From a virus, in IMG/VR virus record IMGVR_UViG_3300028269_000003, positions 2,968 to 66,967 of that record: a stretch of DNA of 64,000 nt; one strand, 5' to 3'. Positions within the stretch are counted from its first letter, which is position 1; each line of letters opens with the position of its first letter. The translations under genes and the position numbers were made by a program. Of this stretch, positions 1,381 through 36,426 are shown piece after piece. The notes below the pieces were generated by a model that had not been told where the DNA came from, did not search any database, and worked only from the letters and a program-made list of their open reading frames with translations.

Positions 1381-1391
1381 ATGAGCGATGA
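1221..1391 (+). CDS. small phage protein (56 aa, MASDGGKGSRQRP...FELNFDLIF)
   Basis: AGGA RBS; second copy 35028..35195 differs mostly by synonymous changes. Confidence 0.75.
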   Translation: MASDGGKGSRQRPTFDQERFELNFDLIFRSKEKKFDQTVNNGELLDELKESSKDER

Positions 1392-1584
1392 TTGCGATAT
1401 GGCACAAATCCAGATAGAGAATAACGAAAACCGCAGTATTGCTTATGCAAGTATTGAGGCTAACAAACCTATTCAGTTAAGTGATGTGTGTTTATTCTGT
1501 GGAGAAAGTACTGTTGATGGTAGGCGCTGGTGTGATAAGTTTTGTGCAACAGAGTATGAAAAAAGACAGGCATTAAAACGATAA
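1381..1584 (+). CDS. TraR/DksA-like C4 zinc-finger protein
   Basis: N-terminal DxxDxA (MSDDCDMA) plus CLFC...WCDKFC. Confidence 0.7.
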   Translation: MSDDCDMAQIQIENNENRSIAYASIEANKPIQLSDVCLFCGESTVDGRRWCDKFCATEYEKRQALKR

Positions 1585-1677
1585 AAAATCCCCTAGCTTA
1601 TCTCTATATTAGCAGTCTATTGGCTAGGGGTTATCACTAAGGGAGTGATTGAGGCTACATCATTGGAGAGGATGTAG
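1583..1677 (-). ncRNA. three-hairpin element/terminator after the lysis genes; candidate 3'UTR sRNA with anti-RBS loop
   Basis: stems CTACATC/GATGTAG, ATCACT/AGTGAT and CCCCTAGC/GCTAGGGG plus a U-tract on the - strand; all three stems covary with the copy at 35392-35484. Confidence 0.7.
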
Positions 1678-1685
1678 ATTTAACT

Positions 1686-1886
1686 TTAATGATAATTTCT
1701 CTCTAAGTCAAGAATATATTTGCCTAACTTTTCAGCATTATCACGATTTAGGCATATTCCACCGTCATTTTGTGGTATCACTTGCAGATGTGGTTTTGTC
1801 GGCTTTACCATCTGAGGCTGACACGCCGCTACCGAACTTATCAGCAAACCACTGAGCAGGATTTTCACTAAGTTTGTCATGCTCAT
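1686..1886 (-). CDS. outer-membrane lipoprotein, o-spanin (Rz1-like)
   Basis: signal peptide with lipobox VAAC, Pro-rich; overlaps 1765..1959 in another frame at the end of the lysis cassette. Confidence 0.65.
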   Translation of the reverse strand: MSMTNLVKILLSGLLISSVAACQPQMVKPTKPHLQVIPQNDGGICLNRDNAEKLGKYILDLERNYH

Positions 1887-1959
1887 TTTGAGCCTTTCTA
1901 AAGCTAATCGCTTGCAGTAGCTTTTCAAATAGACGCAGGATGATTTCTAGCGTTTTCAT
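1765..1959 (-). CDS. putative spanin partner (Rz-like position)
   Basis: overlaps the lipoprotein gene; conserved in copy 2; amphipathic rather than strongly hydrophobic N-terminus. Confidence 0.5.
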   Translation of the reverse strand: MKTLEIILRLFEKLLQAISFRKAQNEHDKLSENPAQWFADKFGSGVSASDGKADKTTSASDTTK

Positions 1960-20845: not shown

Positions 20846-20869
20846 TTCAATCTCCAATGATTAAAAGGT

Positions 20870-22554: not shown

Positions 22555-23925
22555 TTATAAAAATTTTGGTAATGCTGCGTTATTTTTAAACTCTTTGCGA
22601 ACATCAGTAAAACTGTGATTGACTGCATTTACTAAGTTTTGATGTAACTGTATAGTCTTTTGTGTTTTTTGCTCTAAAGCCTCTAAAACACGTTCCTGAC
22701 CATCACTGGCCACAATGTCAATAGTTACATCACGTTTCTGGCCAAATCGCCAAAACCTGCGAATTGCTTGGTAATATTGTTCATAACTCCATGTAGGGAA
22801 AAACACAGAATGGTTACAATGTTGCCAGTTCAAACCCATGCTAGTCATCTTTGCTTTGGTGATAATTCTGTCAATGTTACCTTTGGCAAAGTTGATTAAA
22901 ATATCCTCTTTTTTATCAATAGACATTGAGCCGATAATTTCCACAGCGTCTTTGTCTAATTCTTTTAGTAATGCGCTTTCCTCGTTAAAGTTGCACCAAT
23001 AGACACTCGTTTTGCCTGCTGCCAGTTCTGCAGCCAATTCACAGCGAGGTTTAATTGTTTGTTGCTGTTCGTGTCTGACTTCTGTCATTGACTTAGCCAC
23101 AGGCGTTAATAGTTGCACCTGACCGTTAATGTCAATTAGTGATTGGTTTTCTACTGAATGATAGTTTTTAATTAATTGTGGCAATTCATAACCGTCATCA
23201 CTAAAGCCAATATCACTAGGTTTTTTAACCATGATTGACCATTGATTTACCCACGCAAAAAAGTCTTTTTCAGCATGGGGTTTAAGATAGAACTTTTCAC
23301 CGATGTTGCGATTATTGCTATCAACAGAGTTTTGGTTGTTTTTGAAAAACTTGGTTAGCATATCCATGTAACCCATATACCCCAAAGCCTCGCTAGACGT
23401 TCCTAATTCAATAAAGTCATTAGGGCTTGGTGTTGCTGTGGATAGGAAACGATATGGCACTTTTTTAATGAAAGCGGTTATCTGCTCTTTAATCTTTCCG
23501 TCAAAGTTTTTTAAGATAGAACTTTCATCAAGTATCACGCACTCAAAATCAGACGCATTAAAAAAATGTAAACGCTCGTAATTGCAAACAACAATCTTTT
23601 TTGTAAATTTACCGTCTTTGCAATGTTCAATGTCATCAATGCCAAGTTTTTCAGCTTCATCTAAAAACTGAAAGGCCACAGCTAAAGGCGTAAGAATTAA
23701 AACGCGCTTGTTATGAGTTAAAACAATATTGTTTGCGATGGATAACTGAATTAAGGTTTTACCAAGTCCAGTATCGGCAAATATACCAATACGGCCTTTT
23801 TGAACTGCTTTGTCTATAATGTATCTTTGAAAGTCGAAAGCAATGTCTGGAATCCAGTTTGCTTTAAACCCAAAGTTGCCAATAGAGTGCTTTTTTGCCT
23901 CTATAAATTGTGAATAGTTCATCAT
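22555..23925 (-). CDS. SF2/SNF2-like helicase-ATPase
   Basis: DTGLGKT, LDESS, TATPSPND, QAIRRFWRFGQ. Confidence 0.9.
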   Translation of the reverse strand: MMNYSQFIEAKKHSIGNFGFKANWIPDIAFDFQRYIIDKAVQKGRIGIFADTGLGKTLIQLSIANNIVLTHNKRVLILTPLAVAFQFLDEAEKLGIDDIEHCKDGKFTKKIVVCNYERLHFFNASDFECVILDESSILKNFDGKIKEQITAFIKKVPYRFLSTATPSPNDFIELGTSSEALGYMGYMDMLTKFFKNNQNSVDSNNRNIGEKFYLKPHAEKDFFAWVNQWSIMVKKPSDIGFSDDGYELPQLIKNYHSVENQSLIDINGQVQLLTPVAKSMTEVRHEQQQTIKPRCELAAELAAGKTSVYWCNFNEESALLKELDKDAVEIIGSMSIDKKEDILINFAKGNIDRIITKAKMTSMGLNWQHCNHSVFFPTWSYEQYYQAIRRFWRFGQKRDVTIDIVASDGQERVLEALEQKTQKTIQLHQNLVNAVNHSFTDVRKEFKNNAALPKFL

Positions 23926-26984: not shown

Positions 26985-27049
26985 ATCATAATTTATATTT
27001 TAATTTTATGCAAATAATATTTGCAATTTACTTTTAAAGCGATTATAGT
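26985..27049. promoter_or_regulatory. back-to-back divergent promoters with central palindrome
   Basis: leftward TTGCAT-17-TATGAT, rightward TTGCAA-17-TATAGT; TGCAAAT-AAT-ATTTGCA (27009-27025) spans both -35 boxes. Confidence 0.75.
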
Positions 27050-29767: not shown

Positions 29768-30193
29768 ATGAAAACTTGTTTTAAATGTAAAAAAACCAAA
29801 AGCTATGATGAGTTTTATAAACATAAGCAAATGGGTGATGGATATTTAAATAAATGTAAATCTTGCACAAAAGAAGATGTTTATAAACATAGACATTTTA
29901 GTGAAGCAAGAGAAAAAATACTTGCTTATGACAGAGAAAGGGGAAATAGGCAAAATAAAGAATATTTAAAACTTTATCGTGAAAAGTATCCAAAAAAATA
30001 CAAAGCTCATGGAATTGTTGCAAGAGCAATTAGAGCTAAAAAATTATTTAGGATGCCTTGTGAAGTTTGTGGAAATTTAATAACAGACGGTCATCATGAT
30101 GATTATGACAAACCATTAAATGTTAGATGGTTATGTGCTGAGCATCATCGTGAATGGCACGCAAAAAATGGTGAAGGGCTAAATGCATTTTAA
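29768..30193 (+). CDS. HNH-type endonuclease / zinc-finger protein
   Basis: CFKC..CKSC N-terminal finger; PCEVCG...HHDDY.KPL.VRWLC..HH..WH. Confidence 0.8.
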   Translation: MKTCFKCKKTKSYDEFYKHKQMGDGYLNKCKSCTKEDVYKHRHFSEAREKILAYDRERGNRQNKEYLKLYREKYPKKYKAHGIVARAIRAKKLFRMPCEVCGNLITDGHHDDYDKPLNVRWLCAEHHREWHAKNGEGLNAF

Positions 30194-30614: not shown

Positions 30615-30974
30615 TTGGAATACACGTATAGCAAAAAAGACTTTAATAAATTCGTATCATACTGTAAGTTTTGGCTTAACAAGTTTGGCATAACTGAATG
30701 GGAAATTGATTTTAAGCACCATCAAATTGATTCAGCAGCCAGAACAACTTACAATTGCACAGCTAAACTTGCTTGCTTTCAATTAACCATTAGAGGCAAA
30801 GGTGATTTCTGCTTACAAAGTGATTTAAACCGATTGGCGTTACATGAAGTTATTCATTTGTTGCTAGCTGATTTTTGTTATTCCATAAGCGAAACAAAAG
30901 ATTATCAAAGTGACTTAGCAATTGCACATGAACACGCAGTAGTTATGAGATTAATGAAAGCAATACTTAACTAA
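30615..30974 (+). CDS. putative zinc metallopeptidase-like protein
   Basis: HExxH (ALHEVIH) with a downstream E; TTG start after GAGG. Confidence 0.6.
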   Translation: MEYTYSKKDFNKFVSYCKFWLNKFGITEWEIDFKHHQIDSAARTTYNCTAKLACFQLTIRGKGDFCLQSDLNRLALHEVIHLLLADFCYSISETKDYQSDLAIAHEHAVVMRLMKAILN

Positions 30975-30979
30975 ACAAT

Positions 30980-31055
30980 GCGCCGTTAGCTCAATGGATA
31001 GAGCAGTCGTTTTCTAGGCGATAGGTTGAGGGTTCAAGTCCTTCACGGCGCGCCA
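30980..31055 (+). tRNA. tRNA-Arg (anticodon TCT)
   Basis: full cloverleaf: GCGCCGT/ACGGCGC acceptor, GCTC/GAGC D-arm, loop TTTCTAG, TTCAAGT T-loop, encoded CCA; 76 nt. Confidence 0.93.
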
Positions 31056-31064
31056 AACAAAATT

Positions 31065-35038: not shown

Positions 35039-35195
35039 TGGCGGCAAAGGTAGCAGACAAAGACCAACGTTTGACCAAGAGCGGTTCGAACTTAATTTTG
35101 ATTTAATCTTTCGCAGTAAGGAAAAGAAGTTTGACCAAACTGTGAATAATGGTGAATTGCTTGATGAATTAAAGGAAAGTAATAAAGATGACTGA
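35028..35195 (+). CDS. small phage protein MASDGGKGSRQRP (copy of 1221..1391)
   Basis: mostly synonymous differences from copy 1. Confidence 0.75.
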   Translation: MASDGGKGSRQRPTFDQERFELNFDLIFRSKEKKFDQTVNNGELLDELKESNKDD

Positions 35196-35394
35196 CACAA
35201 GTGACCCATTAGATGTAGCAAGTATTAATGAGCAAGTTAATTGTGATATGAAGGTAAAAGAGATACAGGCATTAGCCAGTAAAGAATTACCAAAGAGTGA
35301 TATTTGTTGGGGATGTGGCGAACCTACAAAAGACGGTAGACGTTGGCATAACGTAGATTGCAGGAAATTATGGGAGGACTTTGGAAGACAATAA
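35188..35394 (+). CDS. TraR/DksA-like zinc-finger protein
   Basis: DPLDVA (DxxDxA) plus CWGC...WHNVDC. Confidence 0.65.
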   Translation: MTDTSDPLDVASINEQVNCDMKVKEIQALASKELPKSDICWGCGEPTKDGRRWHNVDCRKLWEDFGRQ

Positions 35395-35484
35395 AAAAAT
35401 ACCGCTAACTTATCTCTATACAAGCAGTCTAGTGGTTAGCGGCATGGTTATTTCAACCATTAAGTCATCATTGGAGAGGATGAT
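35392..35484 (-). ncRNA. three-hairpin element/terminator, copy 2
   Basis: TCATC/GATGA around ATTGGAGAG; ATGGTT/AACCAT; CCGCTAAC/GTTAGCGG + U-tract. Confidence 0.7.
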
Positions 35485-35493
35485 GATTTAACT

Positions 35494-35694
35494 TTAATGA
35501 TAATTTCTCTCTAAGTCAAGAATATACTTTCCCAACTTTTCAGCATTATCACGATTTAGGCATATTCCACCGTCATTTTGTGGTATCACTTGCAGATGTG
35601 GCTTTGTCGGCTTTATCATCTGAGGCTGACACGCCACCATTGAAGTGATTGCGAAACCAATCAGAAGGGCTTTGACTAAGTTTGTCATGCTCAT
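35494..35694 (-). CDS. o-spanin-like lipoprotein
   Basis: lipobox MVAC; copy of 1686..1886. Confidence 0.65.
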   Translation of the reverse strand: MSMTNLVKALLIGFAITSMVACQPQMIKPTKPHLQVIPQNDGGICLNRDNAEKLGKYILDLERNYH

Positions 35695-35767
35695 TTTGAG
35701 CCTTTCTAAAGCTAATTGCTTGTAGTAGCTTTTCAAATAGACGCAGGATGATTTCTAGCGTTTTCAT
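35573..35767 (-). CDS. putative spanin partner
   Basis: copy of 1765..1959. Confidence 0.5.
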   Translation of the reverse strand: MKTLEIILRLFEKLLQAISFRKAQNEHDKLSQSPSDWFRNHFNGGVSASDDKADKATSASDTTK

Positions 35768-35952
35768 TTTTTAAGTTGCTTAGTGCGCCATGCTGACCAT
35801 ACTAGACCACCGATAGTGAGAACTGCACCTGTTACAGCCTCTACCGCACCAGATACAGCGTCAGGTTCGATGTAACCTTTAGTGACCAAGATAGCGCCCA
35901 CAGCAGTTAAGCCGTGACGGATAATAGAGCCGATAATAACTGTTAATTCCAT
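35764..35952 (-). CDS. putative holin (Pam3-gp28-like)
   Basis: one residue different from 1956..2144. Confidence 0.7.
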   Translation of the reverse strand: MELTVIIGSIIRHGLTAVGAILVTKGYIEPDAVSGAVEAVTGAVLTIGGLVWSAWRTKQLKK

Positions 35953-35955
35953 AAT

Positions 35956-36426
35956 TTACTCCTTAAAGTGAATAAGACATTCTACTGTACGATTTACCCA
36001 ACCTTTGCCAAATCTGCCAAAGTTACTCAAGCTAGAATAAAAAATAATGCGCTCGGTTGTAAATTTTAGCAACACATCATTGACCGCCATTTTATTTAGA
36101 GCAGATTGCGAAAGTCTGCCCCACTGACCATCTGGATTAACTTTAACAGCACTTTGCAAGATACGTATTGCACGGCTAATACCAGTATTAACAGCGCAAT
36201 CAAACAAAACGCAATGAATAGTCGGATGTAAGTTAGCAGGGAGTTTATCCCAGTAGTCACGCTTGTAAATAACCATAGCATCATATTGAGTCAAATCTCT
36301 AATATTAAGATGGGGATAAGCACGTTTTGATATACCGTAGCGGGTTTCACCGCCAGCATCAAACTTATCATCACTATATAAACCTTCGTGTTTTAGTACA
36401 AATTGAACTGCTTTGTCAAAGTTCAT
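35956..36426 (-). CDS. endolysin, glycoside hydrolase family 108
   Basis: HEGLYSDDKFDAGGETRYGIS; paralog of 2148..2618. Confidence 0.9.
   Translation of the reverse strand: MNFDKAVQFVLKHEGLYSDDKFDAGGETRYGISKRAYPHLNIRDLTQYDAMVIYKRDYWDKLPANLHPTIHCVLFDCAVNTGISRAIRILQSAVKVNPDGQWGRLSQSALNKMAVNDVLLKFTTERIIFYSSLSNFGRFGKGWVNRTVECLIHFKE

What the first reader, a model, noticed from the sequence alone, without database searches (positions are those of the whole stretch)
1583..1686. Covarying three-hairpin RNA at the end of the late operon whose loop is antisense to the early-gene ribosome-binding site
Seen on the - strand after the last lysis gene: hairpin 1 CTACATC-[CTCTCCAAT]-GATGTAG, hairpin 2 ATCACT-5nt-AGTGAT, then terminator CCCCTAGC...GCTAGGGG plus a U-tract. 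In the second copy (35392-35484) the stems change sequence but still pair (TCATC/GATGA; ATGGTT-5nt-AACCAT; CCGCTAAC/GTTAGCGG). The 9-nt loop and most of the terminator interior stay invariant. The loop CUCUCCAAU is the exact complement of AUUGGAGA(G), the RBS of at least nine early/middle genes. Inference: a 3'UTR-derived sRNA made with late transcription that blocks translation of a whole gene class through a shared RBS 'barcode'. Alternatively the + strand displays the RBS as a decoy for a repressor protein.
Basis: partly seen in the sequence, partly recalled or inferred. Interest (0 to 1): 0.82.

Follow-up and report, generated by a model that had tools for sequence, protein, structure and literature searches.

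The report
Structured gap between two converging phage operons
A 95-base stretch with three hairpins sits where a phage's late and early operons run into each other; it most likely stops and protects transcripts, and its proposed role as an RNA that silences early genes remains possible but unproven.

Summary
Three hairpins lie on the - strand at 1677-1590 and again at 35483-35402. Their stems differ between the copies but still pair. The hairpin-1 loop, CUCUCCAAU, is the exact complement of ATTGGAGA(G). That 8-mer occurs 11 times against 1.9 expected, and 9 occurrences are ribosome-binding sites of early or middle genes.

Three points weaken the sRNA reading:
- The element fills the gap between two converging operons, so terminator hairpins are expected there.
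- The two phage units are 88% identical here, so an unchanged 9-nt loop is what chance gives.
- On the + strand the loop is simply a further copy of the early-gene RBS, followed by ATG.

One result is new. Hairpin 3 is a separate module. Its 25-nt loop recurs, with 1-2 differences, in four other viral contigs, with an unrelated stem and in another gene context. Six of its 8 pairs changed on both sides and all cells pair. Hairpins 1 and 2 were found nowhere else. Rfam has no match.

My best reading is a two-way termination and 3'-end protection zone that includes a conserved-loop hairpin of unknown ligand (0.45). The anti-RBS sRNA reading gets about 0.2. No expression data were available.

The parts
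1655..1677 (-). Hairpin 1, copy 1: 7-bp stem and 9-nt loop CUCUCCAAU. On the + strand the loop reads AUUGGAGAG, followed by ATG TAG.
   Evidence: Folding energy is -6.1 kcal/mol on the - strand and -7.5 on the + strand.
1633..1649 (-). Hairpin 2, copy 1: 6-bp stem and 5-nt loop. It is a weak hairpin with no conserved sequence.
   Evidence: Energy -4.7 kcal/mol. Three of 6 pairs changed on both sides and 4 of 5 loop letters differ from copy 2.
1583..1630 (-). Hairpin 3, copy 1: 8-bp G+C-rich stem, conserved 25-nt loop (1622-1598), then A + U6. The U-tract overlaps the stop codon of the converging + strand gene, which ends at 1584.
1683..1711 (-). Sigma-70-like site TTGACT-17-TAAAGT inside the end of the spanin gene. 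It is placed to start an RNA just before hairpin 1. Consensus match only.
   Evidence: present in both copies, 9 of 12 matches. The number of such sites is not above the shuffle expectation (2 found against a mean of 1.7).
1686..1928 (-). Last gene of the late (lysis) operon, an Rz-like spanin. Its stop codon is 8 nt before hairpin 1.
   Evidence: PHROG phrog_8971, E = 2.7e-16.
1381..1584 (+). Last gene of the converging early operon: a 67-aa zinc-finger protein. The unit-2 counterpart at 35188-35394 matches DksA-like zinc-finger phrog_54.
35465..35483 (-). Hairpin 1, copy 2: 5-bp stem with the same 9-nt loop. On the + strand it extends to a 12-bp stem with a G-U pair, followed by ATG ATG ATT TAA.
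   Evidence: Energy -6.0 kcal/mol on the - strand and -10.8 on the + strand.
35444..35460 (-). Hairpin 2, copy 2.
35393..35442 (-). Hairpin 3, copy 2: stem CCGCUAAC/GUUAGCGG, 25-nt loop (35434-35410), then UA + U7.

Best explanation
The 95-nt gap is the meeting point of two converging transcription units. It works as a two-way transcript-end zone.

Hairpin 3 plus its U6-7 tract ends the late (lysis) transcripts on the - strand and shields their 3' end. Hairpin 1, read on the + strand and followed by AUUUAACUUUAAU, does the same more weakly for the early operon. Hairpin 2 is a spacer hairpin. Only pairing matters in the stems, so they drift by compensatory change.

The hairpin-1 loop is, on the + strand, one more copy of this phage's leader cassette (ATTGGAGA, then ATG). 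It is held in a hairpin and opens only 1-3 codons. Its complementarity to the early RBS on the - strand follows automatically from that.

Hairpin 3 is a separate, portable module. Its 25-nt single-stranded loop is conserved among otherwise unrelated phage contexts, so it is probably the binding site of an unknown protein or RNA.

What is shown: the geometry, the folds, the covariation and the recurrence of hairpin 3. What is inferred: termination, protection of RNA ends and ligand binding.
For: - Geometry. The + strand ORF ends at 1584 and the - strand spanin ORF ends at 1686. The same arrangement holds at 35394 and 35494.
- A U6 or U7 tract directly follows hairpin 3 on the - strand.
- Strand asymmetry. 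Hairpin 3 has U-G outer pairs that pair only on the - (sense) strand: UG in 3 of 5 distinct rows at columns 3-43. The extension in copy 2 also holds a G-U pair. Hairpin 1 of copy 2 is more stable on the + strand (-10.8 against -6.0 kcal/mol).
- Stem covariation in hairpin 3. All 40 cells pair and 6 of 8 pairs changed on both sides. In 0 of 500 shuffles did the paired share or covariation score reach the observed value. Slid registers pair only 22-43%.
- The loop recurs in L003-L006, after ssb or another gene, with the stem TTGATGC/GCATCAA.
- The hairpin-1 motif has the orientation of the + operon and is followed by ATG 2 nt later in both copies.
- Several ATTGGAGA sites lie 15-35 nt behind TTGCAA-17/18-TATAAT-like promoters, so the motif is part of a repeated promoter-leader cassette.
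- Bidirectional terminators are documented in phage transcriptomes: 15 of 132 transcript ends in phage 201phi2-1 (PMC11512511, passages seen).
Against: - Hairpins 1 and 2 are weak (-4 to -7.5 kcal/mol).
- The consensus terminator scan reports 0 terminators in either region, because its loop limit is 8 nt.
- A 25-nt loop is atypical for an intrinsic terminator.
- In L003-L006 hairpin 3 is not followed by a U-tract, so termination cannot be its conserved role.
- The + strand tail after hairpin 1 is only moderately U-rich and lies in the spanin coding sequence.
- Nothing explains why an RBS copy should sit in a terminal hairpin loop. A purely vestigial RBS would be expected to decay, although two copies at 88% identity cannot test that.
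Confidence: 0.45

Rival explanations
1. A - strand RNA of about 95-100 nt is cut from the late-operon 3' UTR or made from its own promoter. The C/U-rich loop of hairpin 1 pairs with the AUUGGAGA leaders of early and middle genes. This shuts off their translation once late transcription is running.
For: - Exact 8-9-nt complementarity to 9 RBSs, all outside the late blocks.
- Predicted duplexes of -11 to -14.4 kcal/mol for 7 of 109 called ORF leaders, all early or middle. The best late-gene leader reaches -9.0.
- A sigma-70-like TTGACT-17-TAAAGT sits just upstream in both copies.
- An A/U-rich single strand precedes hairpin 1, and a terminator with U6-7 ends the RNA.
- G001, a phage that has hairpin 3 but no hairpin 1, does not use ATTGGAGA as an RBS. 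It has 1 ATTGGAGA in 37 kb, and 2 of its 9 TTGGAGA sites precede ORFs of 89 or more codons.
- Loops of phage c4 RNA are proposed to pair around an RBS (PMC12197685, passages seen).
Against: - There is no expression evidence of any kind.
- Loop identity between the copies is expected by chance at 88% identity.
- The promoter match is not above the shuffle expectation.
- The 42-nt perfect run upstream is matched or exceeded by 5 other runs in the same alignment.
- The X5 variant has a one-letter deletion in the loop and another in a stem arm.
- Seven of the 9 RBSs have T, not G, after ATTGGAGA, so the ninth loop base usually does not pair.
- The two units count as one evolutionary observation, and no covariation between loop and RBS can be shown.
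- The + strand reading explains the same letters.
Confidence: 0.2
2. A + strand function. The hairpin displays AUUGGAGAG plus AUG at the end of the early transcript. It acts as a decoy or high-affinity site for whatever recognises this RBS class: 30S subunits, a translational repressor or an RBS-cutting nuclease. Alternatively it acts as a start-stop mini-ORF.
For: - The motif has the + orientation, and ATG follows 2 nt after it in both copies, opening 1 codon in copy 1 and 3 codons in copy 2.
- Hairpin 1 is as stable or more stable on the + strand. The whole copy-2 element has a z-score of -4.43 on the + strand against -3.25 on the - strand.
- T4 RegB cuts GGAG in the Shine-Dalgarno sequences of early genes, with an A-rich 3' context, GG*AGRAYARAA (PMC3014915, passages seen). 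The window's leaders read GGAGAUAAAAA and GGAGAUAUAAA.
Against: - None of the 30 proteins scanned against PHROGs, nor the 10 scanned against Pfam, has a hit named RegA, RegB or an RNA-binding repressor.
- The spacing from the Shine-Dalgarno sequence to ATG is too short for good initiation.
- The mini-ORF is not conserved as a peptide.
- The + transcript must first pass hairpins 3 and 2.
- For copy 1 the + strand fold is not better than shuffles (z = -1.41, 21 of 200).
Confidence: 0.1
3. A DNA-level element. The conserved 25 bp flanked by inverted repeats is a site for a DNA-binding protein or a module-exchange junction, and RNA plays no part.
For: - The homology block between the two units starts exactly at the element (1583 to 35394), while the adjacent + strand genes are unrelated in DNA.
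- The same 25 bp occurs in different gene contexts in other phages that share a replication initiator at 73% identity.
Against: - U-G wobble pairs in the stem work only in RNA, or in one single strand.
- No second copy or half-site cluster occurs elsewhere in either genome. With up to 3 mismatches there are only the 2 self matches, and half-site scans give only scattered hits.
- The 25 bp shows no dyad or repeat symmetry of its own.
Confidence: 0.08

Closest known systems
Intrinsic (Rho-independent) and bidirectional terminators at converging phage operons
   Same: G+C-rich stem followed by a U6-7 tract at the end of an operon, with an A-tract on the other side. Position between two converging genes. 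Stems vary while pairing is kept.
   Different: The loop is 25 nt and conserved in sequence, whereas typical loops are 3-8 nt. The same hairpin occurs in other phages without a U-tract. Two further small hairpins precede it.
P1/P7 c4 RNA and P22 sar RNA (phage antisense RNAs that cover an RBS)
   Same: A small structured phage RNA whose exposed loop is complementary to a ribosome-binding site (c4: PMC12197685 passages; sar: recalled).
   Different: Those RNAs act on one neighbouring target (ant). Here the proposed targets are 9 dispersed genes that share one RBS word. There is no Rfam match to C4 or any other family, and nothing shows that the RNA exists.
T4 RegB endoribonuclease and RegA repressor (protein-based shut-off of early genes through their RBS)
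   Same: A class of early genes is marked by a GGAG-type RBS with an A-rich 3' context and could be shut off after transcription (PMC3014915 passages).
   Different: That effector is a protein. No homologue was detected among the 30 proteins scanned against PHROGs or the 10 scanned against Pfam. The element here is an RNA or DNA hairpin.
3'UTR-derived sRNAs in temporal gene cascades (for example the Campylobacter flagellar sRNA)
   Same: In concept: an RNA released from the 3' end of an operon of one temporal class regulates genes of another class (PMC11187230, listing and abstract start only).
   Different: That is a bacterial system with mapped RNAs and targets. Here nothing is mapped.

Membership tests
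Intrinsic terminator | G+C-rich stem directly followed by a U-tract on the transcribed strand | tested here: met
   Stem CCCCUAGC/GCUAGGGG followed by A + U6; stem CCGCUAAC/GUUAGCGG followed by UA + U7.
Intrinsic terminator | Short loop (3-8 nt) | tested here: not met
   The loop is 25 nt. The consensus scan reports 0 terminator-like sites in 1300-2000 and in 35100-35800.
Intrinsic terminator | Transcripts end there | not testable with these tools
   No RNA data were available (one search lists no holder on record as RNA).
Trans-acting base-pairing sRNA (3'UTR-derived) | A discrete stable transcript | not testable with these tools
   Only contigs of runs on record as DNA, or probably DNA, could be laid.
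Trans-acting base-pairing sRNA (3'UTR-derived) | An accessible seed complementary to its targets | tested here: met
   The 9-nt loop is complementary to ATTGGAGA(G) at 9 RBSs, with duplexes of -11 to -14.4 kcal/mol.
Trans-acting base-pairing sRNA (3'UTR-derived) | Seed conserved beyond background, or co-varying with its targets | tested here: inconclusive
   Only two related copies, at 88% background identity. The X5 variant has a 1-nt loop deletion. No other homologue of hairpin 1 was found.
Trans-acting base-pairing sRNA (3'UTR-derived) | Its own promoter or a processing site | tested here: inconclusive
   TTGACT-17-TAAAGT is present in both copies but such sites are not above the shuffle expectation.
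Any Rfam family (including C4 antisense RNA) | Covariance-model match | tested here: not met
   At gathering thresholds the window matches only tRNA. At E up to 10 on 1500-1760 there are 4 matches, all far below their family's gathering score; the best overlapping the element is NsiR1 at 17.1 against 39 bits.
Structured RNA hairpin under selection (hairpin 3 module) | Pairing kept by compensatory change across independent contexts | tested here: met
   Six of 8 pairs changed on both sides, all 40 cells pair, 0 of 500 shuffles reach this, and slid registers pair 22-43%. There are only 3 stem versions.
T4 RegB/RegA-type RBS control | A phage-encoded RegB- or RegA-like protein | tested here: not met
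   No such hit among 30 proteins scanned against PHROGs or 10 against Pfam. Many small ORFs have no family hit at all.

The most novel reading that the evidence does not exclude
The late operon ends in a roughly 95-nt RNA whose hairpin-1 loop pairs with the shared AUUGGAGA leader of the promoter-proximal early and middle genes. One late-made RNA would then switch off a whole temporal gene class through a common RBS word. Its terminator hairpin would carry a second, separately conserved 25-nt loop that recruits a factor shared with other freshwater phages.
Probability: 0.2. Interest if true: 0.8.

Novelty: new variant of a known kind. Interest (0 to 1): 0.45.

Why it matters
If the simple reading is right, this is an ordinary operon-end structure with one unusual part: a terminator-like hairpin whose large loop is conserved across unrelated phage contexts. 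That part is a small unclassified RNA motif worth adding to motif collections.

If the bolder reading is right, it would be the first phage RNA shown to shut off a temporal class of genes through a shared RBS word. T4 is known to do this with the protein RegB. Such a system would give a compact, programmable switch.

Either way, the RBS class is real and testable. ATTGGAGA precedes 9 early or middle genes and no late gene.

Tried and rejected
**Rfam.** No family matches.

**INPHARED phage records.** blastn of 1300-2200 gave no match. tblastn with the endolysin reached at most 44.5% identity among the 25 listed rows, to Acinetobacter and Vibrio phages, so no close named relative exists.

**More copies of the hairpin-3 loop.**
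- Pattern scans of IMG/VR: one search gave 4 of 4 true hits; one search gave 4 true among 53.
- Searches gave 85 and 84 stretches. Among the loci fetched in those two calls and examined, the best new match has 4 mismatches to the 26-mer and lies in what looks like coding sequence.
- Genome contigs: 1 stretch, with no flanking inverted repeat and inside what reads like coding sequence.
- Metagenome contigs: 0 of 5 stretches carry the rest of the loop or an inverted repeat.

**More copies of hairpin 1.** The 15-mer scan gave 103 stretches. In the loci returned, none outside the window's own record has the downstream loop-3 words.

**Searches through neighbouring proteins.**
- Spanin relatives: 0 of 9 loci show the element downstream.
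- Relatives of the 56-aa early protein: 0 of 8 loci have ATTGGAGA, CTCTCCAAT or TATAGAGATAA.
- The helicase has more than 588 relatives. Of the 80 loci kept, ATTGGAGA occurs 0-3 times each. In the 32 loci examined, 0 have it before the helicase start.

**Covariance model R1 of hairpin 3.** It hits only G000 (2), G001 (1) and G002 (1) among 5 records. It finds nothing real in 97 loci totalling 1,067,315 bases: one 13-nt partial match at E = 1.9.

**Protein search with the spanin.** One relative, P0001, at 82% identity.

**Sequencing runs.** No RNA holder is listed. The four runs laid are contigs, and X5 is labelled 'RNA? (probably DNA)'. Nothing can therefore be said on expression. Five of the 13 substitutions of the X5 contig were not printed, so its full sequence is unknown to me.

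**Ideas considered and dropped.**
- Sigma-70 promoter inside the hairpin-3 loop. No -35 box is conserved, the -10-like TATAGA lacks the final T, and scans gave nothing on either strand there.
- Loop 3 as an antisense seed against the phage's own genes. Only self matches occur at 11 nt or more, and the scattered 9-10-mers lie mostly on non-coding strands.
- Binding-site repeats of loop 3. None found.
- A conserved promoter signal in the 42-nt perfect run upstream of hairpin 1. The run is not exceptional.
- An antisense ORF at 1649-1855 (+), opened in frame by the X5 deletion. It is absent in copy 2.
- Resemblances to phage-RNA-polymerase promoters and to CRISPR repeats. These were only recalled, did not fit copy 2 or lacked the needed palindrome, and were not tested.

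**Not seen.** Supplementary files of the papers were not opened. They could hold lists of phage terminators or sRNAs that bear on novelty.
Full report
**What the window is.** The window is 64 kb of a 66,967-base IMG/VR virus record. It holds two related phage units about 33.8 kb apart.
- Each unit has a long - strand block and a + strand block of early genes.
- The - strand block runs from replication and recombination genes, through terminase, portal and tail genes, to a lysis cassette. Its early part includes a DnaD-like initiator, a helicase loader, NinB, RusA, a DEAD/SNF2 helicase and a methylase. The lysis cassette comprises a holin, a lysozyme-family endolysin and an Rz-like spanin.
- The + strand block includes a pentapeptide-repeat protein, an AAA_24 ATPase, SSB, an HNH/EndoVII-like nuclease, a tRNA-Arg and many small ORFs. 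It ends in a small zinc-finger protein.
- The units are mosaic. They share only a few DNA segments, one of which is 1583-2618 against 35394-36426 at 87.75% identity.

**The observation.**
- Both copies of the element were read and folded.
- The element fills the whole gap between the stop of the + strand zinc-finger gene (1584; 35394) and the stop of the - strand spanin gene (1686; 35494).
- It is therefore the meeting point of two converging operons, not only the end of the late operon.

**Is the conservation pattern more than chance?**
- Across the aligned 1,085 columns, 924 are identical. At about 88% identity an unchanged 9-nt loop has a probability of roughly 0.3. The 22 of 25 identity of the hairpin-3 loop is also unremarkable within this pair.
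- What stands out is the opposite. The 30 columns that cover hairpin 2 and the 5' arm of hairpin 3 are only 15 of 30 identical, yet every hairpin survives.
- Pairs changed on both sides: 3 of 6 in hairpin 2, 2 of 8 in hairpin 3 and 1 of 7 in hairpin 1. The two outer pairs of hairpin 1 are lost in copy 2.
- The 42-nt perfect run upstream of hairpin 1 carries a sigma-70-like TTGACT-17-TAAAGT. Five other perfect runs in the same alignment match or exceed it. It therefore adds no weight to the promoter.

**The RBS class.**
- ATTGGAGA occurs 11 times against 1.86 expected, and 0 of 100 shuffles reach 11.
- Nine sites lie 1-7 nt before real ORF starts. All nine are outside the terminase-to-lysis blocks: 9 of 57 ORF calls there against 0 of 52 inside, Fisher p = 0.003.
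- Several sites sit 15-35 nt behind TTGCAA-17/18-TATAAT-like promoters. These are at 27021-27049 (+), 27026-26997 (-) and 23980-23951 (-). The promoter at 21306-21277 (-) reads through a non-coding array to the site at 20851.
- The word is thus part of a repeated promoter-leader cassette.
- It is specific to this phage lineage, not to the host. G001, which shares the hairpin-3 module and a 73%-identical initiator, has 1 ATTGGAGA, and only 2 of its 9 TTGGAGA sites precede ORFs of 89 or more codons. None of the 32 helicase relatives examined has ATTGGAGA before the helicase start.
- The predicted loop-leader duplexes are -11 to -14.4 kcal/mol for 7 of 109 called ORFs, all early or middle. Three further ATTGGAGA genes were missed only because my ORF caller chose an upstream start codon. 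The best late-gene leader is -9.0.

**Two readings of the same letters.**
- On the - strand the loop is an anti-RBS.
- On the + strand, the strand of the early operon that ends 78 nt upstream, it is a tenth and eleventh sense copy of the cassette. ATG follows 2 nt later and opens 1 codon (ATG TAG) or 3 codons (ATG ATG ATT TAA).
- Orientation alone cannot separate these readings.
- Energetics lean slightly towards a split: hairpin 3 belongs to the - strand and hairpin 1 to the + strand.
- For hairpin 3, the U-G outer pairs and the G-U extension in copy 2 pair only on the - strand.
- For hairpin 1, the energies are -7.5 (+) against -6.1 (-) kcal/mol in copy 1, and -10.8 (+) against -6.0 (-) in copy 2.
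- Each of these two hairpins is followed by a U-rich tail on its own strand: AUUUUUUAU on the - strand and AUUUAACUUUAAU on the + strand. This is the layout of two face-to-face terminators.

**Hairpin 3 is a separate module.**
- The loop word was found in four other IMG/VR contigs, L003-L006. There the 25-nt loop differs at 1 position from copy 1 and at 2 from copy 2. The stem is TTGATGC/GCATCAA and unrelated.
- The context also differs. The hairpin lies directly after the ssb stop codon in three contigs and after another gene in L003. No U-tract follows it. Next comes a GGCC-GAAAGCG...GAGUAGGCC fold.
- On the six-row alignment (5 distinct rows) all 40 cells pair and 6 of 8 pairs changed on both sides. 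In 0 of 500 shuffles did the paired share or covariation score reach the observed value. Slid registers pair 22-43%.
- The loop has no internal complement and stays open in the folds.
- A covariance model found it once each in the complete records G001 and G002, twice in G000, and nowhere else.
- Further pattern scans of viral, genome and metagenome collections gave only chance matches.
- Hairpins 1 and 2 were not found outside this record. The one exception is a contig of run X5 that lies on 1528-1787 with 13 substitutions and 3 indels. Its indels include one-letter deletions at 1669 (in the loop word) and 1675 (a stem arm).

**What it most likely is.**
- I put 0.45 on a two-way transcript-end zone. 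Hairpin 3 is the - strand terminator and 3' protector and carries a conserved ligand-binding loop. Hairpin 1 is the + strand end hairpin and holds an orphan copy of the leader cassette.
- The anti-RBS sRNA reading keeps about 0.2. It is coherent: the seed strength, the class of targets, the terminator, a possible promoter, and the absence of both hairpin 1 and the RBS word in G001 all fit. It rests on one evolutionary observation and no RNA evidence.
- A + strand decoy or mini-ORF gets 0.1. T4 RegB shows that early-gene GGAG sites with an A-rich tail can be a protein's target (PMC3014915, passages). No RegB- or RegA-like protein was detected here.
- A purely DNA-level site gets 0.08.

**Comparison with known systems.**
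- The nearest kinds are intrinsic and bidirectional terminators (PMC11512511, passages).
- Next come phage anti-RBS antisense RNAs such as c4 (PMC12197685, passages).
- The third is the T4 RegB/RegA protein system.
- Two full-text searches and the passages I read listed no phage RNA that represses a class of dispersed genes through a shared RBS word. This is not proof of absence, because supplements and subscription journals were not searched.

**Verdict.** The structure is real and under selection for pairing, and hairpin 3 is an unclassified conserved-loop motif. The attractive sRNA mechanism is possible but not favoured. Interest 0.45.

Noticed in passing
L174 1-127 (record start) and window 30930-31056: The first 127 bases of the record are 100% identical to the tRNA-Arg region inside the window. 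The record therefore looks like two related phage genomes strung together at an exact repeat, or a tandem pair. The second unit is incomplete at the window end.
   Followed up: partly
window 27021-27049 (+), 27026-26997 (-), 23980-23951 (-), 21306-21277 (-): TTGCAA-17/18-TATAAT-like promoters sit shortly upstream of ATTGGAGA leaders. The RBS word appears to be part of a repeated promoter-leader cassette at the heads of early and middle transcription units.
   Followed up: partly
window 21271-21155 and 58225-58140 (-); L003-L006 just after the hairpin-3 homologue: A fold with a conserved 5' C(C/U)GAAAGCG and a 3' G(C/U)GAGUAGG encloses inserts of different length. It occurs behind a promoter in both units and directly after hairpin 3 in the other phages. 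It is an unassigned RNA module shared by these phages.
   Followed up: partly
window 1649-1855 (+): In the X5 contig variant, the one-letter deletion at 1675 would put the ATG after the RBS word in frame with a roughly 60-codon ORF antisense to the spanin gene. Copy 2 has no such ORF, so it is probably meaningless.
   Followed up: partly
window 22555-23925 (-): The DEAD/SNF2-type helicase has more than 588 relatives in IMG/VR, and the 80 loci kept show 75-89% identity. Many have A/T-rich leaders without a Shine-Dalgarno sequence. The gene is far more widespread than the rest of this phage.
   Followed up: no
window 29768-30193 (+): An HNH/endonuclease VII-like gene (phrog_2340, E = 8.7e-36) directly follows ssb. 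In G001 and G002 the corresponding position holds hairpin 3 and the non-coding fold.
   Followed up: no
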